A stretch of DNA of 62,282 nt, filler included, from Dirinaria sp. TL-2023a (taxonomy: Eukaryota): the NCBI GenBank assembly GCA_051941275.1. It is 29 parts of 29 records of this genome, joined end to end, with 100 filler letters (N's around TTAATTAATTAA, not from the genome) between each part and the next. Parts side by side here need not be neighbours in the genome. Positions count along the whole stretch, not along the records: positions 30,317 to 32,372 come from JAVEBF010002420.1; 28 more parts are not named here. The stretch is one strand, 5' to 3'. Shown here in pieces: positions 1 to 60,985 of this stretch (positions are counted from its first letter, which is position 1; the number at the start of each line of letters is the position of its first letter). The notes under the pieces were generated by a model. The model was not told the DNA's origin. It did not search any database and was given only the letters and a program-made list of their open reading frames with translations. Position numbers and translations under genes: made by a program.

Positions 1-638
1 ACATTTATGGAAATTTTGAGCGTCAGGAAACCACCCGATTGGCGTACAAGCTTCTGAAGCAAAAGAAGGAGCAGAGTTTCAACAACTTCTATACCAAATT
101 CATGCTCTATGGTCGCATGCTAGCCTATTCGGACGATTATCTGATGTGGGATCTGAAGGATAAGGTGAACTTGCAATTGAAGAAGGTTCTGGCCAACTAC
201 TGTGAGCCCGACTTCAAATCATTGCATGAGTTGAAGACGTACTTGCAGCAAGTGGATACTGGTCGAAGGATTTTGAAGCAAAAGCAAATGCAAGAGAAAC
301 CTCAGAAACCAACTAACATTGCACCAAAAGCCGAACCCCCATTATGCCTTCCTAACACTACCGTTGCCGCCACCGCCACCGCTACCGTCATGACCTCTAC
401 TATTGCTCCTACGTCGCAAGCGCAATCCTGGGCCGCCGTCGCGGCAAGAAACCTACCTTCTACACCTTCGCAAACACCTTCGCCGCAGGCACCTTCGCAG
501 GCAATTTCGCAAGCACTCTGGAAGCCCTGGAACCCAAAATTCTGCCTTACCATGCAGGACCTATGCGCCAAATTTCGTTATTATGCTAGGTGCAATCCTA
601 GGTATTTGGCGACGATGAGGGCGTCATGTAGGGTCTGA
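1..638 (+). mobile_element. LTR retrotransposon gag, 3' part, copy 1
   Basis: Gag-like LKQKKEQSFNNFYTKF segment and a degenerate Cys-containing tail. Near-identical to 1470..2074. Followed about 110 bp later by a PPT and an LTR. Confidence 0.8.
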
Positions 639-744
639 TAACGACTTCCCGACAGGCAACTTCATGGTCAATTGGGCAGGAAATGCCACCCATAAAGGCC
701 AACCAGGGCCCAGAATTTGCAAGCAACAGGGACGTTGCTTGACC

Positions 745-756
745 GAAGGGGGGGGG
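745..756 (+). other. Polypurine tract (PPT)
   Basis: GAAGGGGGGGGG ending 3 nt before the TG start of the LTR. Confidence 0.8.
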
Positions 757-759
757 TAA

Positions 760-1004
760 TGTCATGAACCTGACCTGGAGGGTTAGTTCACGTGACTAGT
801 CTGGACCCTGAAGCATGACTCTGGGGAGCCTGAGTTGGGTATATCAGCTTGATCGGGTTAGCGCCTTCGGTCCGTGTATTGCCCGGTTCCTTATTTGGTT
901 TCTGTACTTAGTATTCTTCCTCTTTTTCTTCTTTTCCTTCCTCATACTTAGTGTCCTAGTCTAGTAGTATCCATATGTCTATGAGCGCTGTGCAGGCCAT
1001 GACA
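760..1004 (+). mobile_element. LTR (245 bp)
   Basis: TGTCATG...CATGACA 7-bp terminal inverted repeat, PPT upstream, gag downstream. Homologous to 59335..59632 (shared TGTCATGAACC start and GAGCGCTGTGCAG near the end). Confidence 0.88.
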
Positions 1005-1153
1005 TTACACTAAGTATCATCCCTCTGCACTCGTTTTAAGCGTTGCACGAGTAGATCAAGCAATCGCAGTCTCAGAAGAAGAAGAAGTTCTTGAAGAAGA
1101 AGACCCCCTTGATCTCCTTGATCACCTACACCTAGAAGAAGAAGAAGAACATC

Positions 1154-2074
1154 ATGAATAAGATTCAAAAGAACTTCTCTCCACCCTCACTACCTGTTTC
1201 TCCTACTTCAGAATCGCCTCAGAAATCCTACCTCCTTCCCGACCCTCCCGTGTTCACCGGCGGCAACAATGATGAATATGAGTATGAAGATTGGGCTCTC
1301 AGAATTCGCGATAAACTAAATGGCAATGCCGATCGCTTCACTGCGCAAACGGCCACTGCTTATGTTATAAGTCGCATTGGCGGAGAGGCATCAAAGCATA
1401 TTCTATTCTATCGGCTTCGAGATTGCGATTATTTCAAAGTCCTCAGCATGATCTTTGACGCATTGCATGACATTTATGAAAATTTTGAGCGCCAGAAAAT
1501 CACTCGATTGGCGTACAAGCTTCTGAAGCAAAAGAAGGAGCAGAGTTTCAACAACTTCTATACCAAATTCATGCTCTATGGTCGCATGCTAGCCTATTCG
1601 AACGATTATCTGATGTGAGATCTGAAGGATAAGATGAACTTGCAATTGAAGAAGGTTCTGGTCAACTACTGTGAGCCCGACTTCAAATCATTGCATGAGT
1701 TGAAGACGTACTTGCAGCAAGTGAATACTGGTCGAAGGATTTTGAAGCAAAAGCAAATGCAAGAGAAACCTCAGAAATCAACTAACATTGCATCAAAAGT
1801 CGAACCCTCATTATGCCTTTCTAACACTATCGTTGCCGCCACCGTCACCGCTATTGTCATGATCTCTACTATTGCTTCTACGTCGCAAGCGCAATTCTGG
1901 GCCGCCGTCGCGGCAAGAAATCTACCTTCTACACCTTCGCAAACATCTTCGCCGCAGGCACCTTCGCAGGCAATTTCGCAAGCACTCTGGAAGCCCTGGA
2001 ACCCAAAATTCTGCCTTACCATGCAGGACCTATGCGCCAAATTTCGTTATTATGCTAGGTGCAATCCTAGGTAT
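1154..2074 (+). pseudogene. LTR retrotransposon gag, copy 2, with a TGG>TGA stop at 1616-1618
   Basis: LPDPPVFTGG...YEDWALRIRDKL...AYVISRIGGEA gag motif. The other copy has TGG where this one has TGA. Confidence 0.82.
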
Positions 2075-4225: not shown

Positions 4226-5189
4226 AGACAGATACTTGATACCTGGATNNNNNNNNNNNNNNNNNNNNNNNNNNNNNNNNNNNNNNNNNNNNTTAATTAA
4301 TTAANNNNNNNNNNNNNNNNNNNNNNNNNNNNNNNNNNNNNNNNNNNNGTTCTTCGCACTGCATCTCATTTCAATGATGCAAACATGACTAATCTTTTTT
4401 CGTCGAATGAGAGATTAAAACGAGCGTTGATAATGAGCGATTGAATCTGGATGTCTTCTCAGCAAACTCATGATAGATAAATAATCTCATTCGGCACTCG
4501 AAGCCCGTCTTCTATCAAGACTAGCTATGCGGTCACTGAAAAAATTTATCTATGACGATTTCTGTATTTTATAACATGCAATGAGCGATTTCTTTCGACA
4601 CTTTCGTCTCAGTTCTTTACTCGTATTTCATTCTGTGACAATAAGTAAAGAGAGTCACAAAGAGCAAAAACATCTCAGTTCAAGAACTGAAGAGTTCTTC
4701 GTCTAATAACAATTCTTGTATTCGTAATATCGAGATCTTCATCTCTTGCATCGTAATACTCGTGACGTAATGTTGAATATCGAGAAAAACTTGCTATTCT
4801 AATAAGAAGACATAGAATGTAGCTGATGTAGAATGACGAATCGAAGAAGACGTTTTCGACAGCAACAGTATCGATGTCGCTGAAGACGAAATCGCGAGAA
4901 ACTTATTAGACTCTTTATATCTATCTTCTCTATTGATTTCGTGTCAACGCAAGCGTCAATCACGCGAAACAATCGACTTTGACGACGCGAATTTCGAGTT
5001 CAGACGCGTGTGAAAGACTCGATCACAGTTGTCATCACGAGAACACACTGCTCTCATTATGTTCTCATCGTCAGAAGATCTCTTGACTCTGCTTACTAAA
5101 AGCAGATTCGTAGTCGACATCACGTATAGATGAATCTCGTCGTCAGTCTCAGCAAACTCATAATAAGACGAAAGATAGTTCTACTCTAC

Positions 5190-5325
5190 TGTCAAGATCT
5201 TAATCAAGATTAGATAGATTTATTCGATTGCAGTCTTGACAACATGAGAGTTATCAAAAGATTAACTAAATCAAGTCAGAGACTTGATCGTTTATCTAAT
5301 TACTTGATGTTTCAGAGTCGTAACA
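5190..5325 (+). mobile_element. Solo LTR (136 bp) with 5-bp target-site duplication TCTAC
   Basis: TGTCAAG...GTCGTAACA flanked by TCTAC at 5185-5189 and 5326-5330. Similar to 22664..22793. Confidence 0.85.
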
Positions 5326-6118
5326 TCTACGAGCATCTGCTGAAGCACATGTTGCACTCAGATATCAGAAAAACGATCGCATCACTTTCACACGAGACAA
5401 TTCTTCGAGCAAATGCTCAGTCGATATAATCTCGATTTATGAAATCAAGATCTCACAATCTCACGATTCGATATTAAAGATTTACGATGTATCGAATCTC
5501 GCAGACCGCGCAGAAGACAAAGAAGAAAAGTTGCTTGTCACTCAAGGTTTTGACGATAAGCGGTGTTATCAGATTAATGACAGTGTTTTATTCAAGCAAC
5601 GTCAATAGAGATATCCTCATAGATCGAATTCATTTCAAGAACAGAATATCTGATGTAAAATCATTGTAGTTCTATCGCTCAATCTTGTCTCTGACACTCT
5701 GTACACTTTATACTGAGTGTGAGACTGACCGACGTGTTACGAATCGAGCAGATCAGCGAATCTTTTGTCGATATACTGTTACGATTTAGTGAACTCTGAG
5801 TCAGTAACTTATATGAGATACGTCGGAAGATAGCATCAATCACGATTATCTGCAGATGCTTTATCGCTCTACTCAGACGAGCAGATGAGCAGATGATCTA
5901 CTGTCTCGCTCGAGAGAGCAGAGAGGATTTCATTGTGTATATAAATTCTCAACACGACGCTCTTCTGACATCGTGTTCAACTTTAGTTAGATTGTCTACT
6001 ACTGCTACAAGTACTAAGTATCTACCTCGTGTGATACTTATCATATCACTATTGACACCCGTTGTTTCTTGACAGACCTCTTCATACAAGATCAAATCTC
6101 AGTCTCTTATTAGTCTAA

Positions 6119-6244
6119 CTCTAGACGACGTGAGTAGACGCAACACAAGTCTCTAACTTAGTTTAGTTGATCTTTTAGTAACTTCTACGTTATCAAGGCT
6201 TCAACCCTGAATAACTTATCTAATCAAGATTTGAGGCTTTGACA
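6119..6244 (-). mobile_element. Partial copy of the same short LTR family
   Basis: Reverse complement reads TGTCAAAG...TTGATTAGATA...AAAAGATCAACTAAACTAAG, aligning with the 5190 and 22664 copies. Its distal end is unclear. Confidence 0.6.
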
Positions 6245-6863
6245 ACACGGTGTTTCTTTTGCTTTCTCATACCGCTGCTAAAGAAAGTCAGACTGAGTAG
6301 AAGTTTCATGCGATGCTCTCAGACGAGAAGTTTTACGACGAGCCATCATGTAGCGCTTGTGAGAAGAAAGACAGAAGATGTGAACGAAAACTGATGAAGA
6401 AGAAAACGTAACTGCGAGAATNNNNNNNNNNNNNNNNNNNNNNNNNNNNNNNNNNNNNNNNNNNNTTAATTAATTAANNNNNNNNNNNNNNNNNNNNNNN
6501 NNNNNNNNNNNNNNNNNNNNNCTTTTCAACGAAAGGTGCCTTATGGTTCACGATGCAGTTTCCAGAGATGCTGGACACGCTTATGATTCTAACGCCAAGG
6601 CCTGGCAAAAGGGAAATTGTCAGCCCGTTCCGAAATACTTTTCCGGTTGCGACGTATCTCTACTTTAACCTCACCGTCTAGCTTAAGGTATACAGTATCT
6701 CCATAATCTCGTAGAAAAGACCTATAAAAGCGGCGACCAAGGAGTCCTCCGCTTCGAGCTCTTCCAGCTCCTGGACGAAACGGAACAATTGTACATCATA
6801 ACCACGTATCAAGACCAATCTACCAAGTATAATCATCGCAAAACGAAATTGTATCTGGATACT

Positions 6864-19393: not shown

Positions 19394-19633
19394 GTGTGTC
19401 TGATCCCTCGTCCCCCCTCGTCCNNNNNNNNNNNNNNNNNNNNNNNNNNNNNNNNNNNNNNNNNNNNTTAATTAATTAANNNNNNNNNNNNNNNNNNNNN
19501 NNNNNNNNNNNNNNNNNNNNNNNGGTTGATTCGTCGCAAAGTGGTGGCTCAGCGGGACATAAGGTGTTGACCGTCCATGGAATTTAAATTATATATATTG
19601 TAATTAGATCAAATGTTTTCGGTTACCACGGAG

Positions 19634-22663: not shown

Positions 22664-22793
22664 TGTCAAAGACCCAACCTTGATTAGATAGGTTTCCCAA
22701 TGGTAAAAGTCCCGGCAGCGCCAAAAGACTAACTAAACCAAGTCAAGGGACTTGGTGCCTATCTTACTACTTAGGTGTTCTAGGGTCGTAACA
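22664..22793 (+). mobile_element. Short LTR (130 bp), same family as 5190..5325
   Basis: TGTCAAAG...GGGTCGTAACA. No matching TSD seen. Confidence 0.7.
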
Positions 22794-23745
22794 TTCAATT
22801 CTCGCGAGCTCAAAAAGCTCTTCAATAATTAATCGAATCGTGTTGCGTAGTATGATGATGTCACGAAAATCGAAATGAAATCGATTGCGCGATTCGTCAA
22901 AATTATGAAAATCTACTCTCAGATGATTAGACATTTCGTTACATCGCTGCAGCTTCGTGACGAGCTAAACAAAGCACTCATCACATATCGTTATCGCATG
23001 TACACACACTTCGAGTCATACATCGTCGAGTCGATTATGCGTCTAAACGAAACGTACTTGTGTGCTCGTCACACTCAAGATTTAGATGACGTCGATGATT
23101 GACGCATTTTCGACTCGTCGTTAGAATCTCTAACGCTGATAAAAAAGAAAGTCGTTAGAGTAAAGTCTGTATCGACGACATCGTCATCTAACGTCAGCAG
23201 AGTATCGACAGAATACTGTCGCAGATGAAGCAACGATGTTGAGTGTTCGAAGAATTGCAAGTATAAACACGTCTGTTTCAAATATCAGTCACATGAGCAC
23301 ATAACAAAAAATTGCAAACAGGTGCTATCTTTCAGCAACTTTATACTCTTATTCGTCAAGTCACGTCGATGATTTGTATCGATGTCTACATCGCTGCAGT
23401 CAATTAGTGAGATCTTTCTTTATGATATCACATCTGTCGATGAGACATCGTTTGACGATCCGAGATCTCTCAAAACTTCAAAATAAGTATATTTTTTGAG
23501 AGAACACTCGGATCAAAAGTTTGTAAACACATTGGTCAGAATATTCACTCACGGCGCTAAAATCGAGTATATCGATTCGAAAAGTCTATTTTTGACTCTC
23601 AATTATCTTTCTGCTTCTTCTGCATTTGAAATTCTCACTGTCGATTTCATCAAACAAATGAAGACACATCGCATCATTCGCGTGTCGAGAACGTCGACGA
23701 GACGCTTCGTATTATCATCGTTAGATCTAGTATCTAAAACATTTG
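22794..23745 (+). mobile_element. Degenerate DIRS/Ngaro-like (tyrosine recombinase) retrotransposon: gag tail with Cys/His finger and start of the RT ORF
   Basis: YCRR*SNDVECSKNCKYKHVC finger, then HSDQKFVNTLVRIFTHGAKIEY...NYLSA...FVLSSLDLVSK, matching HPD..F...G..IGY...N..SA...SPLGLVPK once CC>TC and GG>GA are reverted. Confidence 0.6.
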
Positions 23746-30316: not shown

Positions 30317-32372
30317 GACGCTTCGCAATTACATCGTCGATGCACTTGAAAAGAATTGAATTCGATCATTCAGCGATCTCATCGAAGCGTCTGTGTTGTT
30401 TGTAAAGAAGTTCGATGATAATTTACGACTTTGTGTTGATTATCGAGAACTCAATGAGATCATCATCAAGAATAAATATCTCTTGTCGCTATTTTCTGAG
30501 ACGCTCGAGCGATTCGCGCGTGCTCGTCATTTTATCAAAATCGATATTAGAAACGTTTATCATCGCATTCGAATTCGCAAAGACGAGAAATGAAAGATCG
30601 CGTTTCGTACTCGTTATGATCAATTTGAATATCAAGTAATATCTTTCGATCTGACTAACGTTTCTGCTATTTTTCAGTCTTATGTAAATCACACGTTGAA
30701 ATCATACATCGACGTGTGTTATATGATTTATCTGAATGATGTTCTCATTTATTCAGAGACTGAGAAGCAGCATTGAGAGAATGTTCGTCGAATGTTTCGC
30801 GTCTTGTTAGCACATCGTCTCTACGCGAAGCTATTTAAGTGTGCTTTCAATCGCAGTGAGATATCTTTTCTTGAATTCATAGTAAAGCAAAGTGAGATTC
30901 AAATGAAACAATCGCGTATCGAAGTCATTTCTGAATGATCGATACTCAAATCTGAGAAAGACATTTTAATCTTCTTGAGATTTGCTGAATTTTATCGACG
31001 CTTTATTCGCGGATTCTCGCAAATAGTCGCGTCGCTAACTGATTTAACAATCGAAGCGAAGAAGAGCGAAGCTCGTTTCTCGTTCAATTGAAACGTTAAA
31101 ACGAAGAAAACGTTCGAACGACTTAAGCAGACGTTTATCGGCGCTTCTATTTTGCAGCATTATGATTGAGATGCTTCGCTTCAAATGAAAACGAATGCTT
31201 CAAAACGAAGAGTCGATGATGTGCTCAATCAACTGAGTCGCGATCGTTAATGACACTCGATTGCGTTTTTTAACTATAAATTCAAGAGAGCAGAGACTCG
31301 CTGAAACACGCATAACAAAAAGTTGTATGCGATAGTTCTGAGATTTAAAAATTGAAGACACTATTTTCAAGATAGTCAACACCTCATTCGTGTGATCACG
31401 AATTACAATAATCTTCGTTATTTTATGACAACGAAGAAGCTCACTGCTAAATAAATTCGCTGAGTAGAGAAGCTTGCTACGTTTAACTTTATCATAAAGT
31501 ATCGCAAAGAGAAACTTAATTCCGCGAATGCGTCGTCAAGAAGACTCGATCTTATGACATTCGATGAAAGCGACGATAATAACGACGACTTTCTACTCAC
31601 ATTGCAAAATAAATTTCGTTTTGCTGAGTATCAGTCTGAGCAGTTGAGTGACGCAAGCGTCTTTTCTGCGATCAAACTAGCAGCGTTGACAGCGCAACTG
31701 AGTGATAATGTCATCGCAGATACTCAAGTCAGAGACTTAAATGAGAAAATGCTCGATAAACGTCGCAGTCTTTTAAACTCTGCTTCGTCTCGACTTTTAG
31801 TACATCGAGTGATTAAGTCGAAAAGATTCTTCGTTGCTTTGCAAGAGTTTATGACTGCGTGATTGCATCAATTACAACAGAAGAACGCTTTTGTTGTGAA
31901 GAAGCAATGACGACAGAGATTTGCAAGCAAAAAGAAAGAACTTTCGCATTGAAATATGAGCGAGAATGAACTGTTACGTCGAGATCTCGCCGTCTATGTT
32001 TTTAACGACTCTGCTACGAAGAAAAAGATTCTTCGTACTCATCATGATGACTCTGATGCGAATCATTTTGCGCGAAGTCGTACAGAAACTGCGATTCGCA
32101 AGAAATATTTCTGATTCAGCATGCTGTCAGAAATCGAGAATTATGTTCGCTCATATCTCGATTGTCAACGAGTGCGAGTTTATCATCATAAATCTTATGA
32201 CGAACTTGAATCAATTTCATCAGATGAAGAGCAATCATTTAATACTATTACTCTAAACTTCATTACTGATATGTTCTCTGCTAAGAATTTATATACTGAA
32301 AAGATCAGTGATGCTATTTTGATAATAGTTGATAAAGTAACTAAGTACGTCACGTACATATCTATCATCTCG
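30317..32372 (+). mobile_element. Ty3/gypsy pol remnant (RT, RNase H, integrase zinc finger), many stops
   Basis: LRLCVDYRELN, DE*KIAFRTRYD, YLNDVLIYS (from YLDD), FAEFYRRFI, ITNYNNL, HHD...NHF...CQR, ITLNFITD. Confidence 0.93.
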
Positions 32373-32472: not shown

Positions 32473-32622
32473 TCAGATGAATTTTTCATTTCATTATCTA
32501 CTCCGCAGTATATTAGTCTGTCAGCAACATCGTCTGTGATGAAGCTCAGATCTATGATAGTCTGAGCCCCCTGATAGTCCCGCGTTATGATATTACTTGG
32601 GAGCGCCAGCGAGGCGCCGACG
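32473..32622 (-). mobile_element. LINE endonuclease (APE) fragment
   Basis: Minus strand reads ASLALPSNIITRDYQGAQTIIDLSFITDDVADRLIYC...NSS, resembling the T.IDL.F...SDH end of the APE domain. Confidence 0.5.
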
Positions 32623-33033
32623 CTTTATTATCGTTATTTATGTTGATAATTTTCTCATAATCGAATTTTTTAAAATCAAGGTTCAAAAAATTAAACAAAT
32701 GCTTTATATTAAATTTATATAAAACTTATTCGTATTCGTGATCCTTATTCGTATCCGTCAAGTCGGAGAAACTATTAGAGTTGTCGCAGGATTTTTATTA
32801 AACTATCGCATATATCACATATCAGAAGAAATGTATTCATCATCATTATTTGCATCTATATCAAAATAATCAGATTAATGTATTAACTTGCAATTTGAGT
32901 ACGTTTTAAAAAATTTGAAAAAAATTTACTGCTAAATATATCAAATAGATATTATAGTATCAGCTGACAAATTAATTTATCTCATCTATATTATCTGTTT
33001 CATCTGTATCATCTGCATTATCTGCATTTACTA

Positions 33034-33430
33034 ATGATTTTTTCATCGTTATCATCGTTTCGCGAAAACGAGTATATATTTATCGAGATTGTTTCGATCA
33101 TGTCGTCGTCGTCAATTGATGACGCGAAATCTGAAATCGACGAAATTTTTCTTCAGACGTTAAATATCTTCATCAAAAAGCACGATTATGCAATCGTTAT
33201 CAAAAACTCTGTTAAATCGTCTCAAGATGTAAAAAATAAGTTTTATATTCGCTGTACACGAGATAAAAAGTCGAAATCTCATGTAAATGTAACGAAACGC
33301 TCTGATGCAAATAACAAACTCATTGATTGCTCGTTTCGCATCGTCGTCAGATTTATCGACGATGACATGTAAAAATTCATCGTCATATTTCGTGCGAAAC
33401 ATAATTATGAAAATAATATTGAAGACTCTT
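33034..33430 (+). mobile_element. Mutator (MULE) transposase N-terminal FAR1/WRKY-like domain remnant
   Basis: KHDYAIVIKNS...IRCTRD...KLIDCSFRI...*KFIV...KHNY (C..C..H pattern). Ends where the LTR at 33442 begins. Confidence 0.6.
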
Positions 33431-33441
33431 ATTCAAATTGG

Positions 33442-33690
33442 TGTCAGGATCGGTGCAGAAGATATGATCTATGCAGGTGCTATTAACTAAATACACAAAG
33501 CATAAAGAAGAAAAGAAATCTACGAACTAAAATCAGACATAATATGAATGTGTAGGCGTTGGACCCTAATCGATCGGACCGACCACCACTTCGGATGCGC
33601 TAACCTCGATCAGATCAAAACTCAACATCACACACAAAAATCTTGTAAAAAATGATCCGAGTAACAACAGTAAGAGTCAGACTCGTAACA
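33442..33690 (-). mobile_element. 3' LTR (249 bp) of a minus-strand chromovirus
   Basis: TG...CA ends. Minus-strand PPT GAGAGAGGGGAATAG abuts 33690. Confidence 0.75.
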
Positions 33691-34528
33691 CTATTCCCCT
33701 CTCTCAAAAAACGATGTTCTCATCGCGTGTATATCTTAATTATGACGTTGATAACGTCTCTGCGAAGATTTGTTATTGTTGACGTTTTTCGTCTCGTCGG
33801 AGTATCGATGATGATAGTTCTGAGTGATATTCTTCGCATGCATGAACTCGTCATTATCGATATCGTATCATGTCAAATCTTTACTCTTTTTTTCTATTTA
33901 TCGACAACGATATTGTAATCTCTCATAATGTCAGCGCGAGCTGATTATGTCAATCAGCTCTCATTCATCGTTTTCGTTGATGACGATTTTATCGAGAGAT
34001 TCTTGTATTTGACTCGATAAAAAGTTTTCGAGATTTTTGCGCAATAGATTTGAGTGAAATACATTGTGTATTCTCATGATATTAGAGAGTTGAAGCTCAT
34101 AAAAGATTTCTATGACTTTGATTATCGAGAAAAATTCTAGCATCTTGTTTTCGATTTTTCTTGAAGATCTATCGATGACAATATTCTTGCTCGATAAAAA
34201 TATGATGTTCTCAACGTTATAAAATATCTCTTTTTTACTTTTATTCGTTTGTTTCTTCATGATCGTTTGTGAGATCTCTGCGTTTTCTCTCATCAGATTC
34301 AGTACGTTCTTCATGATATCTGTTATATTCTTCGTCTTCGTCGTTTGTAGACGATCTCTTACAATGATGTATTTGATATCGTCAGAGAAGAAGAACATGC
34401 GAGAGTGAAAGTCTTTATTGACGTAAAGAGAGTCATATCGATATCGACGACGACTGCGTTATTGTCAGCGAATTCTGTCATCGATAAAAGATCAACTCAG
34501 TTGTTCTGCATGTAATTGCAGTATAGAC
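33691..34528 (-). mobile_element. Ty3/gypsy chromovirus integrase C-terminus and chromodomain remnant
   Basis: EFADNNA..., YELQLSNIMRIHNVFHSNLL, then DE*ELIDIISSR*HYERLQYRCR*...DLT*Y chromodomain. Confidence 0.85.
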
Positions 34529-34893
34529 NNNNNNNNNNNNNNNNNNNNNNNNNNNNNNNNNNNNNNNNNNNNTTAATTAATTAANNNNNNNNNNNNNNNN
34601 NNNNNNNNNNNNNNNNNNNNNNNNNNNNAGGGGTTGTCGAGGCCTTTATATATAGAGGACGCAGGCGCAGTTTTGATACTCTATGGCTACCGCCACGTGT
34701 GTGTATGTATGTGTGTGTTTGAATCAAATAATATATCAAAGCGCAAGGTCGGGCAGCGAAATGCATGAAGTGTATAGACTGCTGTCTGACTGAAATATGG
34801 AAACATCAGTAATTTGTATGAGCGCATACAAAAGCACCTCGCAGGAGAAAGTATTAAAGTCCAAAAAACAAAATGAGAAAGAAAGAAAAAAGT

Positions 34894-35029
34894 TGCCTCA
34901 CCCCTGAATCGAACACTCGCCCAAAAAAATTCGACAACCGATACTCCAATTGCTACACCCTCAGATTCCACAAAGGACATGGGCTACTAATGCAGAGTTG
35001 GAGCTCTGTCCAAGTTGGACCAACACGGC
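34894..35029 (-). ncRNA. tRNA-derived element with internal hairpin insert, copy 1
   Basis: GCCGTGT-TGGTCCAACTTGG (A-box-like), GAGC D-stem arm, TCCAA/TTGGA stem around an insert, GTTCGATTC B-box, GAGGCA end, then oligo-T. Confidence 0.5.
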
Positions 35030-36322
35030 TGCCGTGGAAATCTTTGGCAGTATTTTCATTATATCTATTTTCACAACCACTTTTTCAGTTTAGACTGATC
35101 GTACATATATAATTAATCCACGACATAAGATAGCACATTTACTTTGCAGTATGATCTACTCTTCGTTCTTCTTGGTTCTTTTCTAATAACTTCAATTGGG
35201 AGTTACATTCACATTGGAGGATCTGATAACAGTTTACGTATTATCAAACGAGACAATCCGTACGAATCTTTATGACTCAGAGTATCGACACAGTGGATCT
35301 TAAGCAACGAGTCTGACTCTACTAGACTCGAGCAATTTGATAGCGAGAAAATCATTTCGTGATATTCTTTGTATGCATCTCGATGTCAACTCGAAGACTA
35401 TCTACCACACCTGTTTATCGAGTGTTTAGCAGGGAGAGGAAAAAGTGTCTTGATGCCTGGATACACACGCAGCTAGGTGGTCATGTGTATGTCGGTGTTA
35501 CCCCATGGAAGTCCTTGATGCTGCATCCGGTGCGTGTTTGAGGCCATCGATGTCATGGCGCATGGCTATGTGATCGCTTACAGGTAGTCAGCTGACCTAG
35601 AGCAGGTTCTTTTCTCGATCTTACTACCTAGAAACTCATTTTCTGGACCTTTGCGATGCAGGTAGCAGTGTGAGCAGTGTCTTTTCGGCAGTGTGCTTGA
35701 CAGTGTGTATAGATGAGTATAAAGCGCACTTTCAGTCCCACCTTTGACTTCCACAATTACTTGATCATCGCCCGCTTCATTTCCGCATCCGACATCCCAT
35801 TGCGAAAGCCCTTTTCCCATCCACACACTCCAGGTATCAACCGCAAAGGTAGAGAGAGTTGCTGGCGCTAGCGGAAGCATACTTTGAGATATTTGTTACC
35901 TGCTAGGTAGACGCCTCTGGCGCCGGCGAGGGTTAGAACCAATACATATTGCTTTTGCCAATTCTAGTTTCATAAGACATCGATAGTACTTCGTAAGACA
36001 CATTATTAGAATAAGAACATGCAAAGATTTGTTCAATTGATCCCATCAGATTTGCTCTCTCGCGAAGTGGGATCGACGAGAAGAAGATGATTCTGGAGTC
36101 GGAACTTTAGATCCATTGTTCATCGACTGAGGAAACGTACACTGCGTAATTTTCGTAATTCTGTCTGTAGCGAGCCTTTTTGTAAATCAGATTCTCTTGT
36201 CTGAGACTCTATCAAAAACGTAACAGAACAATAAGAAAACGTGATATGCTGTTGGAAACCCAATGATCGACAATCAAATTTAGTGTTTATATTAAATAAT
36301 ATTATCCAACATTTTCACCGCA

Positions 36323-36462
36323 GCCGTGTTGGTTCAAGTTATTTGATCAGAGCTCCAACTCTGCATTAGTAGCCCATGTCCTTTGTGGAATCTGAGGGTG
36401 TAGCAATTCGAGTATCGGTTGTCGGTTTTTTTTTGGGCAGGGTTCGATTCAGGGGTAAGGCA
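36323..36462 (+). ncRNA. tRNA-derived element, copy 2 (inverted relative to copy 1)
   Basis: Central ~75 nt match copy 1 at all but one position. GGTTCGATTC B-box and a T-rich tail. Confidence 0.5.
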
Positions 36463-36655
36463 ACTTTCTTCTTCTTCTTTTTTTTTCTGTTTTTCTGTTG
36501 TTGATCTTACTTTTATTCTCAATTTAATTTCAATGCTTTCGTAGAAATAGGTATTGTTAGATCTTCGTATATAAGCTTAAAACCTCACAAGCAAATTTAT
36601 TTCTTTGTAAAATGTGTGTTTATGTAGAATAATATTACCAAAGGTTTTCACGGCA

Positions 36656-36683
36656 GCCGTGTTGGTTCAAGTTATTTGATCAG
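36656..36683 (+). ncRNA. tRNA-derived element, copy 3, cut by the contig end
   Basis: GCCGTGTTGGTTCAAGTTATTTGATCAG identical to the start of copy 2, with a similar upstream flank. Confidence 0.5.
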
Positions 36684-38597: not shown

Positions 38598-39291
38598 CGC
38601 AGAGAAATGCTTCGCTTATCTTGAACAGATATATGAGATGCTTAGCAAACGAGACAAATTATCCTTTAAAGAAACCCATTCACTCTCGAATCGCGCATGG
38701 CCTTTTACATAGAAACAACACAAATTCAGCGAAATTCAAAAACACTAGAACAATGTGAAAAGAATCTCGACTACATGTGTCTAAAGACATACGATCAAAA
38801 CAATTTAACAGTAGATTTTTCTTCAACATAAATATCNNNNNNNNNNNNNNNNNNNNNNNNNNNNNNNNNNNNNNNNNNNNTTAATTAATTAANNNNNNNN
38901 NNNNNNNNNNNNNNNNNNNNNNNNNNNNNNNNNNNNTGTCACATGGAACCAGGTCATAGTTTTCCTCAGCAGCAACGAAGTGATCCGTCGCAGATCGAGC
39001 TCTGGACTTATATCCACTTCAGCATCCGTCAAGCGAGGAGAAGAAGGGTATCTTTCGACGTCCTCCCAATCCGGTGATGCTCGGCGTTGCTAAACCTTTT
39101 TTTCCCTGATTGAAGAGACAGAGGCGTACAGGCTCAAGTTTCCCGACAATGTGGATGCTTGTCTGTCAGGGGAAGATAACTCTTCTGACAGCACTTGCCG
39201 TCAACTTTCTGCGACAAAGGAAACGCAATATCCTCATTACAGTTTTCTGTACTACGCAGCAGCTCCTTTCCCGAATTTCAACGCCGCAGAT

Positions 39292-39670
39292 ATGGTGCGA
39301 ACCGTCAATGCAGAACGCGAGCCGGTGGAGCTAGAGACGGGAAGCCAGCGCGAGAGGATGCAAGCGTTCAGTGAGTGGGAGGAAGAGACGCACGGTGGAC
39401 GGATCCAAAACTCACGAGCTTACAACACGGTCCTGAGGATGCGAGAGTTCAGTGAATGAAAAGAACAGACACGGTAGCAGAAATGTGAATTTGCAGTAAT
39501 GCTGTTTTCGAGCTCTTGGACCACAAGCAATTATGGTGAGAACCGTGAACGCCGAAGGCGAGCTGGTGGATCTAGAGACAGGGAGCCAGCGCGAGAGGAT
39601 GCAAGCGTTCAGCGAGTGGGAAGAAGAGACACACGATCCACGGACCCAAACTCACGAGCATACAACGCGG
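39292..39670 (+). repeat. Direct duplication (about 140 bp, period 241) of a short coding segment MVRTVNAE...FSEWEEETH
   Basis: Copies start at ATGs 39292 and 39533, with a partial third motif at about 39435-39472. Confidence 0.85.
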
Positions 39671-49532: not shown

Positions 49533-52023
49533 NNNNNNNNNNNNNNNNNNNNNNNNNNNNNNNNNNNNNNNNNNNNTTAATTAATTAANNNNNNNNNNNN
49601 NNNNNNNNNNNNNNNNNNNNNNNNNNNNNNNNGTCCATATTCCAATGCACAATCGTGATTTCTCGATGGGATTGTAGTAAGGAGGAATTAGATAACAGAC
49701 ATTATTATTATACAGTACTCGTGCATATTTCACGGGGTCTTGTCTGGTTTTTTTTGTCTTTTTTCTCATCACAGATCCACGAACATCAATTTTTTTTTTC
49801 TCTTTTTAACGATTACGATTAATCAAACTAAACCTTCTGCTCAAATATAAATACATGTATTTCAGTAGACAGCGGACATTGAGCTATTTTATTAAGAAGC
49901 CGCAGGCGCGTTCGCGGACGGGAGTAAAATACCTTAAAAGTGACGAGAATTGGAATTCGCAGTGTTACTTGCTCTTGTTGTATAATGTATACTAAGACTG
50001 ACTTTTAATCTTATATGATATTTGAAGCTGGCGATTGAAATTAGTCGCTTTTTTTTTCTTTTTTTTTTTTGGGAGAGGCTGGGAAGAGAAGAGAAGAGAA
50101 GAGGTAGTCTGGTCTGGAAGGAGGCGAAAAGACGATGAATATTTGATTTTTTATTTGTGATCCAGTGGAAAAGTAGAGTGTTAGAAGGGCGATTCATGTT
50201 CTCTTAGTATCTCTATTTCTGATCCTTCCCCTTCTTTTCACTCTTCACGAGAAATACTTCTTTTTCTGATCTAGCATTCATCACCAAGGTTTAATTCTTG
50301 CACTACTTAAACTAAACCAATCTTTCTGTTTTTGGTTGATTCTCAAGCGATTAAGTAGCTGGAAAATTTGAAAGAGGAGATAGGAGAGGGGAAAATAACT
50401 GGCGAGTTTTTATGTTTTTTTTCTTGATTTTTTTTCTTAACTAGGAAAAGGGGGAGTGAATAAGTTCTAGAAATTTATTGAAATTGTATATAGTCGCTTA
50501 TTGCTGCTCTTCATTTTTTCTTTTCTCTATGTTCAATGTATAGATCGAAACACAGTCAAGATTTTCTCCTCTCTATGTTGGAAGGTGTCTAATGTAACAT
50601 TCCAACGCAGCTTCAGTGAAAACATGAAAAGATAATAATCCATACCTTGAACGTCCTGATAAAAACCATTCCGAATTAAACAATATACACGTCCTAAAAC
50701 ATCAAAGTACCTACTTCAAGATAAGAGCGGAAATATCCCCCTTCTCAACTAAATCCTTTAAATCCAATCAATGTTGCAAATTCCACGACGTCTTAGTAAT
50801 AAAAAAGCAGAGTTCAATGTCAATGTCAAGTATATTAGATAATTATGTTTAGATAGGGTATGAACAAAAATAAATTCTCGCTTTCGAAAGATGATATTTT
50901 ATATTTTTCGGTTCTCGATTCTTTTGATTTAGCTTCGCTTCTAGGTTTTTAAAGTTTGATAAAGTAATCTCTCAGTTATTGGTTCTTAAGGTTGATTAAT
51001 CAAGGTTTTCTGGAAATTTTTTTTCTTTCTTCGAGACTTTTGTAGAAAGAGGATATAAAAGGTTTATTCTAAAAATTGGCATTTTTTCCATTCGTATATC
51101 GTATGTCGTCTGACATACTGAATGCACCGCTGTCTCTCAAAAAAGACGAAGAAGAAAAAAAAAAGAGCAAACCCCTTTCCAACAAAATTCCAAAACCCCG
51201 CGCAACTCAGCACGATAATTAAACGCCAGATGACTCAGATAGCACAATCTATCTTCTCCCCTACACCTTCCCCTTCTTCTGATTTATATCCCCCCCAAAA
51301 GATCTCTCTGACCCCTTAAAATCAATCCCGCATATCTTTCTCATCTCTTACACATCTTTATCTCAGGTTCTCTCTCTCTTTGGAAACAGAAGGGGGGGAG
51401 TGAGAAGAAGAGGAATTGATACGATTTGACTTGCCGATTACTTTTTTTCTTCTTCTTTCTTTCCCCTCTCCTGGCAGCAGAGTAGCTGTGAATCTCATCT
51501 CAGATTTCTTTCACTATCTCCAATTTTCCTTCTCCAATTTTCCCCTTTCTTTCTCCCTCCCTCCCTTCTCAAAACGAAAAATTCCTCTTAAAAACCCCCC
51601 CTTCAAAAGACGAGAACTTTAAAAAAAGGTAGAGATCTTATTCATCTACTCATCACCCCCCNNNNNNNNNNNNNNNNNNNNNNNNNNNNNNNNNNNNNNN
51701 NNNNNTTAATTAATTAANNNNNNNNNNNNNNNNNNNNNNNNNNNNNNNNNNNNNNNNNNNNGCGGGGATCGAAGCCCATCGGAATCGGGATTCGCATCTG
51801 CTGACGCGGCTGATCCTGACCGACAGGACGCACGCTTGATTCGATGCCTTCATAAACATCTTCTCGGAGCATCCGCCCCGACGTACGCGTACCGGGAGAT
51901 TACGTACCTGCGATTCCATGGAAGGTCGTGCTGATTATTGCTGATATATTTCACTTTCGTCGTGTTTGCTTTTTTCTCTTTACTTTTCCATTCCATCTGC
52001 ATTGTGGTCGTTTTTTCTTGCAA

Positions 52024-58141: not shown

Positions 58142-59334
58142 GTATAATAGAGTCGATAATTATATCAATTTTCTATCGTCGCATTTTCTCGATTTAACAC
58201 TGATATGTTCGTATGTCTCGAAATCTCTCGTTCTCGAGTTGCATCGCTGTTTAACATTCGTTCGATCGCATCGATTACATCGATTTGTGTCTGTTCGTCG
58301 AATGTAATGTTTTCTAATTCTCGAAATACGTTATTATTTCATTCGAATTCATCGTCGAATTTCGTTTTCTGCTCTCGTTCGATAGTCGTATTAATCTTCT
58401 GAGTCGAGACAGATGCATTGTCTGATGTCGTCTCGTTCAGAACTTTTTAAAATACTGTAAAATTCTTCACATAATAGTATTTCTTCTTTAATGTTGATTT
58501 TGCATCTTCTGTCGAGTTTGTATCATCGTCGCAGTTATCTCAATCAATCATTAAATAAATTTTTTCGTAACGTAACGTTCAATTGTTTTTTAAATATCGC
58601 GTTTTTAGTTCGACAATTTCTTGCGAAATGATCTGATTTGTCACATGAATAACACGTTTTGTTAGTTTTATTTTGTTTAACTCTAAGATTTTTCTTTTTT
58701 CGTTCGATAGAATTCAATTTCATAGACATAATCTTATAATAAGACTGTGATTTCTTTTTTTCGATCGTTTTCAACGAATTTATACATAAAGACACTAGTT
58801 TTTTCTCGTGATTCGTTGTCGAAACGTTTTTTCATGACTCGTTTGTACAGTTTGTTGTCAAGATCGATGACGATCTCGATTAATTTTTCGAGAGATTCGT
58901 ATTCTCGTTCATCGCGCATAAGTTCATTCTTGATCGTATTCTTGAGTTCGCGTTTGAACATAATTTACAATGTCACGTGATCTCATTTCGTGAGTTTCGC
59001 GTATTTCTGAAATCGCGCTGCATAATTCGAAGCTGATTTGATTTGTTTAAGATGTTGTATTACTCGTTCGACGATGATTTTCTCATTAAAAATATCGAAG
59101 ATTCTTCGAATCGCTCTTTTGAAGTTATTAAAAGAAGCGAAAATTCTGTCGTTTGTATCTTTTTCATTGCTGAGTCGTGCTCGTAATTTAGATTTAAATC
59201 AATGTTGAGTTCTTTCTCTGAGAAAGATCGATGCGAAAATCGTTTTCTGATTTTCTGTCACGAGATGAAACACAAAATACAGTTTCATCTGCATAAATCA
59301 GTCGTCGAGATCTTCACGTTTTTTTTGTAAACAT
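58142..59334 (-). mobile_element. Ty3/gypsy gag remnant with CCHC zinc knuckle, interrupted by an LTR insertion
   Basis: CYSCDKSDHFARNC knuckle and LKQIKSASNYAARF gag motif; CC/GG depleted. Confidence 0.85.
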
Positions 59335-59632
59335 TGTCATGAACCAGACCCCTATGGACCTGATCACATGATTGGGTCACATGATTGCATGGACCCTGGA
59401 CCCTGAAGCAGAGTCCCTGGATATCACATGTGTGTGGAAAGGTCTATACCAAGTGTTTTGCTAGAGGTGTTGTGTTTTTGCCTGATCAGGTTTAGCGTTC
59501 TCGGATCGGTGTTGTTCCGATTCCACATTTAAATCTATCTGTATTTAGATTTCCTTTTCCTTTTCTTCTTCATAGATAGTGTTCTAGTTTATTCGTACTC
59601 ATATGTTATTGAGCGCTGTGCAGACTCTGACA
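59335..59632 (+). mobile_element. 5' LTR (298 bp), related to 760..1004, followed by leader and a degenerate gag-like frame (about 59752..60165)
   Basis: TGTCATGAACC...TGACA. The downstream leader GTTGCACGAGTAGA is shared with contig 1. Confidence 0.82.
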
Positions 59633-60985
59633 TTATACTATCTATCACTCTTATCTTTGCACTCGTCGACGTTGCACGAGTAGACCAAACAATTGCAAGA
59701 TTAAGAACCTCATAATAAGAAAACTTACGATATAAGATTTATAAAATCAAGATGTCTAAACAGATACAAAATCTTCGAGTTTCGATCACTCAGAGTCAGA
59801 CTTCTATCTTCGTCAATAACTCAATTAACGATGAGGATCTTCTCTCAATGATGAAAGACTTGTGACAGAAAACAGAAAATTGTCGCGTGTCGATGTTGTC
59901 AGATGATTCGATAAAAATTTTTTCGAAAGCAGATTAGATTCTCACTCTCGAAATCATAAACAATGTCGATCAATTGAAATATTTAGTTCGCAACGACGAC
60001 GATGCTGTTTTCGATTTTATAAAGAAGTATCGAGTGAAACGCGATGCAGCATTGCGCTGTGTAAAAGAGTGAAGAAAAATGAAAAAAATGAGAGACGATG
60101 CAATGAATCAGATCATGAGAGCTCAAGAAAGATTTCAGATGTTCAAACAAGATTTTGAGCAAGAGNNNNNNNNNNNNNNNNNNNNNNNNNNNNNNNNNNN
60201 NNNNNNNNNTTAATTAATTAANNNNNNNNNNNNNNNNNNNNNNNNNNNNNNNNNNNNNNNNNNNNGTGTTCTTGGCTTCGTGGATAGATCCTCCATGAAA
60301 TGAATTCTCATTGCGGCGATGTTTTCCCCTCCCTTTAGCAATTTCTTTTTTTAATCTTGAATCTTGATCTTTTACATCCTCTCCTCTACAATCAAATCCA
60401 ATCCAACCCCAAAATTCATCAACGACTCATCCCTATTCATATCATCTCACTTCTGAGCATTGCTTTTTCCCGCGGTGCGGCTTACCCAACTCAGATCCTT
60501 GGTCTCTGCTTTTTTAAAGGAGAGGAGATTGATGAGTAGGTTTGGATCTATGTATCTATGATGATGTGGAATGAGATTTGATGGGGATGGGGTTTGATGT
60601 AGAGAGGTGATAGATATCTGTTGGGTGGATTGATGTTTATCGATGGAGCTAGGGTACGAGTATACATTTACACTGCTTCTTTAGAAATTTTATCGACAAT
60701 ATGTAATGTTCTTTTGAAGAGTTGAGTTTCTGCTCCTATGTTGATTTAACGCCTGATTGGTTTAGTGCAAGATGATAGGCGACTGGTTGAAAATGGAGTG
60801 GATAGCGGTAGTGTAAGAGACAAGCCAGGATGTACGTCGGATGCAGGACTTAAATCTAGCACTGATTCGCAGCTCAAGAGGTGTTCTATAGCTTGTGTGT
60901 TAGTGGAAGGGATGCGGTTTGATCTTGATTGCTTCTTGACAAAGTTATGTTACTCGTTTGAAAGGGGTTCGAGGTATATTATAAA

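What the first reader, a model, noticed from the sequence alone, without database searches (positions are those of the whole stretch)
30317..32372. Near-total loss of CC/GG across several transposon classes while CpG and CpA persist
Seen: this 2-kb pol remnant has only a handful of CC or GG dinucleotides but abundant TCG/CGA and CA/TG. Motif decay follows the rule: WKTAFRTRYG>*KIAFRTRYD, YLDD>YLND, Trp>TGA, Gly>Asp/Glu, Pro>Ser/Leu. The same texture appears in 4349..6421, 22794..23745, 33034..34528 and 58142..60165 (gypsy, DIRS-like, MULE) but not in host genes. Inference: the process is repeat-directed, class-independent and run to saturation. Standard TpA/ApT RIP indices could wrongly score this genome as RIP-poor.
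Basis: partly seen in the sequence, partly recalled or inferred. Interest (0 to 1): 0.75.

Follow-up and report, generated by a model that had tools for sequence, protein, structure and literature searches.

The report
CC-targeted hypermutation of lichen-fungus repeats
A lichen-forming fungus has wrecked its transposon copies by turning almost every C that is followed by another C into T, a variant of the fungal repeat-mutation defence (RIP) that the usual RIP tests cannot see and that also occurs in other public assemblies.

Summary
In 30317-32372, 5 CC/GG remain where about 144 are expected (z -13.9). CpG and CpA/TpG stay at the density of an unmutated relative, and TC/GA are enriched. The window is 29 short contigs of a Lecanoromycetes-like fungus. 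Five are depleted; the other 24, including AT-rich ones, are not.

The stretch is a Ty3/gypsy pol relic in one frame with 14 TGA, 2 TAA and 0 TAG stops. It has 0 Pro, 0 Trp and 2 Gly codons.

Direction and context are shown directly. The contig-1 repeat pair has 23 of 24 differences at CpC. Related gypsy copies fetched from 13 other accession series include a pair with 316 of 319 differences C>T/G>A: 303 at CpC, 13 at CpG, 0 of 583 at CpA.

Best reading: a RIP-like, repeat-restricted, double-strand hypermutation with the order CpC >> CpG > CpT > CpA. Standard RIP indices score it negative.

One depleted contig holds a non-transposon gene relic. Saturation holds only in the cores.

At least nine earlier notes of this scan report the same signature on other DNA of this genome. 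Eight literature searches found no description of it.

The parts
30317..32372 (+). Whole contig 15: Ty3/gypsy pol relic (RT, RNase H, integrase zinc finger). Single reading frame from 30318. CC/GG-free.
   Evidence: Pfam with X at stops: RVT_1 4.8e-19, RT_RNaseH_2 2.5e-18, RT_RNaseH 1.5e-17, Integrase_H2C2 1.5e-11. 16 stops = 14 TGA + 2 TAA + 0 TAG. 5 CC/GG against 144 expected. 49-61% amino-acid identity over its full length to nine chromodomain gypsy pols.
4349..6421 (+). Contig 3: depleted DNA holding a relic of a DUF7492-family gene (about 5312-5753). It includes a 974-bp stretch (4532-5505) with no CC or GG.
   Evidence: CC+GG o/e 0.15. DUF7492 E 6.6e-25. The 15 homologues found are hypothetical fungal proteins; 14 are 385-559 aa and carry DUF7492 only, and the named ones include Peltigera, Sticta and Penicillium. 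Differences at conserved columns include Gly>Glu/Asp, Trp>stop and Pro>Ser.
22785..23745 (+). Depleted right part of contig 11: gag-like retroelement relic. Sharp edge at 22784/22785.
   Evidence: 5 CC/GG in 961 bp against 56 in the 1,098 bp to its left. Frame +0 has 6 stops in 320 codons. 56 homologues at E<=0.001; one of them (P0298) continues into RVT_1/RNase H. No Pfam family on the relic itself.
32473..34528 (-). Contig 16: depleted relic with the C-terminal part of a gypsy integrase (about 33934-34332). Normal CC/GG density at 32503-32789 and in an island at 33440-33800.
   Evidence: CC+GG o/e 0.31. Positions of CC/GG. SH3_Tf2-1 1.4e-05 and 1.6e-06, both below the curated cut-off. tblastn to the integrase C-terminus of P0131, 1.3e-07.
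58142..60165 (-). Contig 28: depleted gag / zinc-knuckle relic. 1,202 bp (58142-59343) have no CC or GG. An island of normal density lies at 59344-59560.
   Evidence: CC+GG o/e 0.26. Positions of CC/GG. Retrotrans_gag 1.4e-04 and zf-CCHC 2.3e-03, both weak.
1..2074 (+). Contig 1: direct repeat 1-605 / 1470-2074 (96% identical) that shows the mutation in progress.
   Evidence: 24 mismatches, all transitions. 23 of 24 sit at a C followed by C, and 23 of 24 are on the second copy. CpC makes up 70 of 292 C sites; binomial p 1e-13.
49633..51661 (.). Control: AT-rich contig 24 without depletion.
   Evidence: GC 0.36, CC+GG 154 observed against 131 expected, z +2.4. No Pfam family in six frames.

Best explanation
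A repeat-restricted, enzymatic C-to-T hypermutation acts on double-stranded DNA and aims at a cytosine whose 3' neighbour is also a cytosine (CpC>TpC, read as GpG>GpA on the other strand). [quoted passage not shown]

Shown:
- the direction of change;
- the CpC context;
- the burst character (hundreds of such changes with almost no other substitutions);
- use of both strands in proportion to available sites;
- sharp limits;
- restriction to transposon and pseudogene relics;
- the order CpC >> CpG > CpT > CpA.

Effect on a coding sequence: all Pro (CCN), all Trp (TGG) and nearly all Gly (GGN) codons are removed, and TGA is almost the only stop created.

Inferred, not shown:
- that duplicated sequence is the trigger;
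- that it happens before meiosis;
- that the enzyme is a RID/DIM-2-type cytosine-methyltransferase-fold protein. The argument for this is that the deciding base is the 3' neighbour, as in DNA methyltransferases and in RIP, whereas in APOBEC-type deaminases it is the 5' neighbour (recalled).
For: 1. Depletion. 5 CC/GG against 144 expected in 30317-32372, z -13.9. Five of 29 contigs are depleted; the other 24 lie at 0.78-1.20.

2. Protein-level spectrum. Against nine relatives there are 473 columns conserved in >=7 of 9, and 146 differ in the relic. 120 of these 146 need only C>T/G>A changes. The commonest are Pro>Ser 16, Trp>stop 13, Asp>Asn 10 and Gly>Glu 9. Of the 126 inferred base changes, 76 are unambiguous CpC, 30 ambiguous (CpT or former CCC), 15 CpA and 5 CpG.

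3. Codon loss. The relic has 2 Gly, 0 Pro and 0 Trp in 685 codons. Six relatives have 37-41 Gly, 32-39 Pro and 13-15 Trp over the same columns.

4. Repeat pair on contig 1. 24 of 24 differences are transitions and 23 of 24 are at CpC.

5. Independent assemblies. 22 loci of a related gypsy family (51-62% amino-acid identity in the best aligned segment, 66-70% DNA identity to the relic) come from 13 accession prefixes. Their CC+GG o/e forms a series: 0.87, 0.54, 0.34, 0.31 and 18 loci at 0.00-0.03. The 58 more distant loci lie at 0.86-1.16.

6. Clean copy pairs.
- L001>L003: 319 differences in 4,579 aligned bases. 316 are C>T/G>A, 3 are the reverse, 0 are transversions. By context: CpC 303/559, CpG 13/646, CpA 0/583, CpT 0/601.
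- L001>L002: 70 of 74 are C>T/G>A. CpC 67/243, CpG 3/300, CpA 0/279, CpT 0/276.

7. Both strands. 119 changes on the + strand and 183 on the - strand, against CC 44.7 and GG 77.4 per kb in L001. The strand labels are randomly interleaved (160 runs against 152.0 +/- 8.5).

8. CpG and CpA retained. The relic has CG 67.1 and CA+TG 117.7 per kb. L001 has 68.7-70.4 and 127.7-130.6.

9. Another lichen fungus (Cladonia rangiformis) is reported to show strong RIP and to have RID and DIM-2 homologues (PMC12542154, section 6 read).
Against: - Copy number could not be measured. No genome is held for this window and no sequencing run was listed. 'Repeat-induced' therefore rests on the coincidence with transposon relics, on the contig-1 pair and on sharp edges.
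- In the contig-1 pair, 23 of the 24 changes lie on one copy. Classical RIP usually marks both copies (recalled).
- Islands of normal CC/GG sit inside depleted relics (59344-59560, 33440-33800; L015 about 1750-2250) and are unexplained.
- A transposon-type ORF on contig 23 is unmutated.
- The defining CpA preference of known RIP is not met.
- No RID/DIM-2 gene, sexual-cycle timing or methylation could be examined here.
- The organisms behind the 13 other accession series are not named by any tool. I did not show that they are lichen fungi.
Confidence: 0.75

Rival explanations
1. Slow decay rather than bursts. Repeats are methylated in a CpC-preferring pattern, for example by a DIM-2-type enzyme directed by heterochromatin, and the 5-methylcytosines deaminate spontaneously over long times.
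For: It would also give C>T on both strands, confined to silenced repeats. Older copies additionally lose CpG: o/e falls to 0.21-0.68 and 20-48% of CpG sites change. That could be ordinary methyl-CpG decay.
Against: In L001>L003, 54% of CpC sites changed while only 3 other substitutions occurred in 4,579 bases. That is roughly an 800-fold rate ratio. In L001>L002, 28% of CpC sites changed against 4 other substitutions. This ratio is far above what I recall for spontaneous 5mC deamination (tens-fold).
Confidence: 0.12
2. APOBEC-like editing of retrotransposon cDNA during reverse transcription.
For: The best-identified relics are retroelements. Some APOBECs recognise CC (recalled).
Against: - Both strands are hit in proportion to their sites and the changes are randomly interleaved.
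- The changed base is the 5' C of CC, decided by the 3' neighbour. APOBEC3G changes the 3' C (recalled).
- A non-retroelement gene relic (DUF7492) carries the same signature.
- The second copy of a repeat on one contig is mutated in place.
Confidence: 0.03
3. Ultraviolet damage at dipyrimidines in a sun-exposed lichen.
For: CC is a dipyrimidine, and UV gives C>T (recalled).
Against: There were no changes at 0 of 601 CpT sites or 0 of 583 CpA sites, including cytosines preceded by T. A purine 5' neighbour is well accepted (A 76 of 128). The effect is confined to relics with sharp edges, while 24 contigs are untouched.
Confidence: 0.01
4. Not a mutation process: either a native composition of these elements or DNA of another organism in the lichen.
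For: The window is a chain of separate short contigs from what may be a metagenome-derived assembly.
Against: - The amino-acid spectrum is directional against intact relatives.
- Graded series and clean pairs occur within one element family.
- Both textures meet on single contigs: 1, 11, 16 and 28.
Confidence: 0.01

Closest known systems
Repeat-induced point mutation (RIP) of Neurospora crassa and other Pezizomycotina (RID- and DIM-2-dependent)
   Same: Only C:G>T:A transitions. Bursts of very many changes. Both strands. Confined to transposon and duplicated DNA with sharp limits. The target is decided by the base 3' of the cytosine. Coding capacity is destroyed. It occurs in an ascomycete class (Lecanoromycetes) where RIP, RID and DIM-2 homologues have been reported (PMC12542154).
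   Different: The preference is CpC, with CpA least hit (0 of 583 in the clean pair). Known RIP favours CpA, and a 2025 kingdom-wide survey concludes that RIP-like defences share a CpA preference (PMC12543289, passages). No TpA is produced and GC falls only to about 0.35, so TpA/ApT, the substrate index and GC-based calls all fail. Stops are almost only TGA. Homology dependence, timing and enzyme were not tested.
RIP-like TCG-targeted hypermutation of Pucciniomycotina (Microbotryum; Horns et al. 2012, PMC3318451, seen in a search listing only)
   Same: A lineage-specific change of the target context of a repeat-directed C>T process.
   Different: The target there is CpG in a TCG context (recalled). 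Here CpG is retained at the density of an unmutated relative.
RIPCAL's CpC>TpC category and the (CpC+GpG)/(TpC+GpA) index (PMC2621366, passages)
   Same: The possibility is foreseen formally, and the index separates the regions here: 0.000-0.058 in depleted regions against 0.49-1.22 in the 24 other contigs.
   Different: In that paper it is one of four bookkeeping classes, excluded by default. In the passages I read, no organism with CpC dominance is reported.
APOBEC3G-type CC editing of retroviral cDNA
   Same: C>T in a CC context on retroelements.
   Different: It is strand-specific, acts on single-stranded cDNA, changes the 3' C of CC and is decided by the 5' neighbour (recalled). None of these holds here.

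Membership tests
RIP (Neurospora type) | Almost exclusively C:G>T:A transitions, many per event | tested here: met
   316 of 319 differences (L001>L003), 70 of 74 (L001>L002) and 24 of 24 transitions on contig 1.
RIP (Neurospora type) | Restricted to duplicated or repeated DNA, with limits at the repeat edge | tested here: inconclusive
   Depletion coincides with transposon and pseudogene relics and has sharp edges such as 22784/22785. A repeat pair lies on contig 1. Copy number in the genome could not be measured. Unexplained islands exist.
RIP (Neurospora type) | Both DNA strands mutated | tested here: met
   CC 3 and GG 2 are left in the relic. 119 + and 183 - changes, proportional to available sites and randomly interleaved.
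RIP (Neurospora type) | CpA>TpA preference; raised TpA/ApT and lowered (CpA+TpG)/(ApC+GpT) | tested here: not met
   CpA 0/583 and 0/279 in the clean pairs. TpA/ApT is 0.55-0.73 and the composite index is negative in all depleted regions.
RIP (Neurospora type) | Dependence on RID and/or DIM-2 cytosine-methyltransferase homologues | not tested
   No genome is held for this window. Homologues are reported in another lichen fungus (PMC12542154).
RIP (Neurospora type) | Acts in the premeiotic dikaryon of the sexual cycle | not testable with these tools
   It needs crosses or parent-spore comparisons.
APOBEC-type cDNA editing | Strand-asymmetric G>A on the sense strand of retroelements only | tested here: not met
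   Both strands are hit and the changes are interleaved. A DUF7492 gene relic is also affected.
Ty3/gypsy (chromovirus-like) retrotransposon, for 30317-32372 | pol with RT, then RNase H, then integrase, in that order | tested here: met
   RVT_1 at residues 29-186, RNase H at 261-389, Integrase_H2C2 at 564-620. Full-length relatives add rve, SH3_Tf2-1 and a chromodomain.
   No such Pfam family at E<=0.01 in any of the 25 frames of the five depleted contigs. Heavy mutation lowers sensitivity, so absence is weak evidence.

The most novel reading that the evidence does not exclude
Lecanoromycete fungi run RIP with an inverted target hierarchy: CpC >> CpG > CpT > CpA, with CCA the best site. The cause would be a changed 3'-neighbour preference in their RID/DIM-2-type enzyme. 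The first product is CC/GG-free DNA of about 35% GC instead of TpA-rich isochores. RIP in this large class would then be systematically under-called by index-based and GC-based tools. The relics keep one long frame open under TGA=Trp, which can mislead gene callers.
Probability: 0.45. Interest if true: 0.8.

Novelty: new variant of a known kind. Interest (0 to 1): 0.6.

Why it matters
RIP's CpA preference is treated as near-universal. A 2025 survey of 1,239 fungal genomes concludes that RIP-like defences share it (PMC12543289, passages).

A natural system with CpC as the main target and CpA as the least used would show that target choice is an evolvable property of the machinery. It would give a natural pair of enzymes to compare in order to find what sets the context.

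It would also mean that RIP surveys based on TpA/ApT, the composite index or low GC miss this form in lichen fungi.

Practical side effects:
- CC/GG-free relics lose all Pro and Trp codons and nearly all Gly codons, which weakens homology-based repeat annotation.
- Their TGA-only stops can imitate a TGA=Trp genetic code.

Tried and rejected
- Whole genome: none is held, so copy number, RID/DIM-2 genes and genome-wide profiles were not obtainable.
- Sequencing runs: none was listed for 30317-32372.
- Larger flanks around related loci: the records are not held by the genome search. Element-to-host boundaries on long contigs were therefore not seen.
- Viral-contig scan: only 2 distant relatives, of no use.
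- Names for the closest relatives: none given.
It removes every TGA in every frame by construction, so it is a weak test. I replaced it with alignment to intact relatives and codon counts.
- DIRS and MULE labels: not found.
- L001 as a DNA-level outgroup for the relic itself. Direction is clear (352 C>T/G>A against 87 reverse). At 67% identity the context is blurred: CpC 0.59, CpT 0.41, CpA 0.21, CpG 0.21.
- tRNA scan of the window, including the islands: 0 genes.
- Strand-run test for processive single-strand action: no clustering.
- UV, APOBEC, native composition and contaminant readings were considered and rejected (see the rival explanations).
- Literature: 8 searches and passages of 11 papers gave no report of CpC-dominant RIP. 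Subscription-only papers and supplements were not seen. Clutterbuck's 2011 survey, which I recall, is one of them.
Full report
WHAT THE WINDOW IS

The 62,282 bases are 29 contigs of 2017-2074 bp, sorted by length and joined by N44-TTAATTAATTAA-N44 linkers. No whole genome is held.

An AP-1 mu ORF (18494-19471) is 99% identical to a protein named from an Alectoria fallacina MAG and 97% to one from Teloschistes. The host is therefore a Lecanoromycetes-type lichen-forming ascomycete.

Normal contigs carry ordinary eukaryotic domains: GH31, NUDIX, enolase-superfamily, clathrin adaptor, BOP1, AMMECR1.

THE OBSERVATION

In 30317-32372 there are 3 CC (68 expected) and 2 GG (76 expected). Observed/expected values for the other dinucleotides are CG 1.92, TC 1.53, GA 1.55, CT 1.03, AG 1.01, CA 0.96, TG 1.05 and TA 0.60. 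Two thousand shuffles gave 144.3 +/- 10.0 CC+GG, never fewer than 114.

Five contigs are depleted, with CC+GG o/e of 0.03, 0.15, 0.26, 0.31 and 0.38. The other 24 lie at 0.78-1.20. The AT-rich contig 24 (GC 0.36) has o/e 1.17, and three further AT-richer contigs have 0.86-1.05. None of these four has a Pfam domain in any frame. AT content therefore does not explain the loss. I cannot prove that those control contigs are single-copy nuclear DNA of the same fungus.

Edges are sharp. The left 1,098 bp of contig 11 hold 56 CC/GG and the 961 bp from 22785 hold 5. Stretches of 650-1,202 bp have none at all.

WHAT THE SEQUENCES ARE

Read with X at stops, 30318-32372 is one continuous Ty3/gypsy pol frame with RT, RNase H and the integrase zinc finger. 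It has 16 stops: 14 TGA, 2 TAA and 0 TAG. It aligns end to end with nine chromodomain gypsy pols at 49-61% identity.

- Contig 16 holds the C-terminal end of a gypsy integrase.
- Contig 28 holds weak gag and zinc-knuckle matches.
- The depleted part of contig 11 is a gag-like frame. One of its homologues continues into RT/RNase H.
- Contig 3 carries a relic of a DUF7492 gene. Fourteen of its 15 homologues are 385-559-aa hypothetical fungal proteins with only that domain.

No MULE, DIRS or other DNA-transposon domain was found. The process does reach a sequence that is not a recognisable transposon.

DIRECTION AND CONTEXT

1. Protein level. At 473 columns where at least 7 of the 9 relatives agree, the relic differs at 146. 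Of these, 120 need only C>T or G>A changes. The commonest are Pro>Ser 16, Trp>stop 13, Asp>Asn 10, Gly>Glu 9, Glu>Lys 8, Val>Ile 8, Thr>Ile 7, Ala>Val 7 and Gly>Asp 6. Of the 126 inferred base changes, 76 are unambiguously at CpC, 30 are ambiguous, 15 are CpA-type (including the two Gln>TAA stops) and 5 are CpG-type. The relic keeps 2 Gly, 0 Pro and 0 Trp in 685 codons. Six relatives have 37-41 Gly, 32-39 Pro and 13-15 Trp.

2. Inside the window. Contig 1 has a 605-bp direct repeat at 96% identity. All 24 mismatches are transitions. 23 lie at a C followed by C and 23 lie on the second copy. CpC makes up only 24% of the C sites (p 1e-13).

3. Outside the window. A scan of the metagenome collection with the pol alignment returned 80 loci. 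Twenty-two of them, from 13 accession prefixes (JAABUH to JAABVA), belong to a related gypsy family. They are 51-62% identical in amino acids (best aligned segment) and 66-70% in DNA to the relic. Their CC+GG o/e forms a series: L001 0.87, L002 0.54, L015 0.34, L003 0.31, and 18 loci at 0.00-0.03. Some of these 5-kb loci hold only one or two CC/GG. The 58 more distant loci, measured over the whole locus, lie at 0.86-1.16.

L001 is nearly intact, with 2 TGA in 1,281 codons. L003, from the same accession series, has 26 TGA, 0 TAA and 0 TAG.

- L001>L003: 319 differences in 4,579 bases. 316 are C>T/G>A, 3 are the reverse and 0 are transversions. By context: CpC 303/559, CpG 13/646, CpA 0/583, CpT 0/601.
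- L001>L002: 70 of 74 differences. CpC 67/243, CpG 3/300, CpA 0/279, CpT 0/276.

Once CC is exhausted, copies still diverge almost only by transitions. L004 against L005 has 444 differences and 15 transversions. Per-site rates are CpG 0.12-0.21, CpT 0.11-0.13 and CpA 0.06-0.09. The order is therefore CpC >> CpG > CpT > CpA. This is the reverse of the Neurospora order as I recall it.

4. Finer context, from the single pair L001>L003. By the base after CC, the fraction mutated is CCA 118/141, CCG 74/121, CCT 77/159 and CCC 33/136. By the base before, it is T 95/139, A 76/128, C 74/136 and G 57/154.

5. Strands. There are 119 changes on one strand and 183 on the other. This matches the supply of sites (CC 44.7 and GG 77.4 per kb). 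The labels are interleaved at random, with 160 runs against 152.0 +/- 8.5.

6. What is spared. The relic has 67.1 CpG and 117.7 CA+TG per kb. L001 has 68.7-70.4 and 127.7-130.6. Some of the other assemblies' copies have also lost CpG, down to o/e 0.21. The window's relics have not.

MECHANISM

The data require an enzymatic burst process on duplex DNA that reads the 3' neighbour of the target cytosine and is confined to relic or repeat DNA. That is what RIP does, apart from the context.

I put 0.75 on a RIP-type process. The homology trigger, premeiotic timing and a RID/DIM-2-type enzyme are inferred, not shown.

- Slow methyl-cytosine decay is unlikely as the main cause. 54% of CpC sites changed while 3 other substitutions occurred.
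- cDNA editing is unlikely because both strands are used, the 5' C is the one changed, and a non-retroelement relic is affected.
- UV damage is excluded by zero changes at CpT and CpA sites.

Points against or left open:
- copy number was not measured;
- in the contig-1 pair only one copy took the changes;
- islands of normal CC/GG lie inside relics;
- a transposon-type ORF on contig 23 is untouched.

STANDARD INDICES

In the depleted regions TpA/ApT is 0.55-0.73, the substrate index is 0.98-1.39 and the composite is -0.31 to -0.78. The 24 normal contigs give composites of -0.31 to -0.76. RIPCAL's default criteria are TpA/ApT >= 0.89 and substrate <= 1.03 (passages).

The non-default index (CpC+GpG)/(TpC+GpA) does separate them: 0.000-0.058 against 0.49-1.22.

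LITERATURE

RIP is reported in lichen fungi from GC content or RIPper output:
- Cladonia rangiformis, with GC falling to 10-20% and RID and DIM-2 homologues present (PMC12542154, abstract, passages and section 6);
- Xanthoria (bioRxiv 10.1101/2025.11.25.690456, passages).

Neither text contains 'dinucleotide', 'CpC' or 'CpA'. A 2025 survey of 1,239 fungal genomes states that RIP-like defences share a CpA preference (PMC12543289, passages).

RIPCAL lists CpC>TpC as one of four formal classes. One paper notes a secondary decline of CpC alongside dominant CpA (PMC5737583, passage).

Eight searches found no report of CpC dominance. Supplements and non-open papers were not seen.

STANDING

The scan has already recorded this signature at least nine times on other pieces of this genome. 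This finding is a further instance, not a first sighting.

- the demonstration in 13 other accession series with two clean copy pairs;
- the full context hierarchy and flanking-base effects;
- the strand tests;
- the retention figures for CpG and CpA;
- the correction of the transposon-class claims.

Noticed in passing
window 59344-59560; 33440-33800; L015 about 1750-2250: Short islands of normal CC/GG density sit inside otherwise CC/GG-free relics. The first holds 29 CC/GG in 217 bp, just upstream of the gag relic. L015's match is about 300 bp longer than its relatives', which suggests a later insertion there. They are either later insertions or segments that had no homologous partner.
   Followed up: partly
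protein P0127 (public collection, 1,223 aa): A gypsy pol prediction has 0 Gly and 0 Pro but 26 Trp. It looks like a gene call that read TGA as Trp on a CC/GG-free copy. Such relics stay open under TGA=Trp (L003: 26 TGA, 0 TAA, 0 TAG), so they could mislead genetic-code inference in metagenome pipelines.
   Followed up: partly
window 47995-49134 (-): An intact 379-aa ORF has only an integrase-type H2C2 zinc finger (8.4e-16), no detected rve core, and normal CC/GG (contig o/e 0.99). It is either an unmutated element of another family or a domesticated gene.
   Followed up: no
L008, L010, L012-L014, L016, L019, L020: In several other assemblies the CC/GG-free copies have also lost CpG (o/e 0.21-0.68) with CA+TG raised to 1.47-1.66 and GC at 0.28-0.33. 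The window's relics keep CpG. This is either a second stage of the same process or a lineage difference.
   Followed up: partly
window 21687-22784: The left part of contig 11 is only partly depleted. Its (CC+GG)/(TC+GA) is 0.33, against 0.49-1.22 in normal contigs. It abuts the fully depleted gag-like relic at 22785. Its identity is unknown.
   Followed up: no
window 34629-36683 and 38937-40983: Contig 17 has internal inverted repeats (207 bp, 84.5% identity) and direct repeats. Contig 19 has a 140-bp direct repeat at 86% identity. CC/GG are not depleted in either.
   Followed up: no
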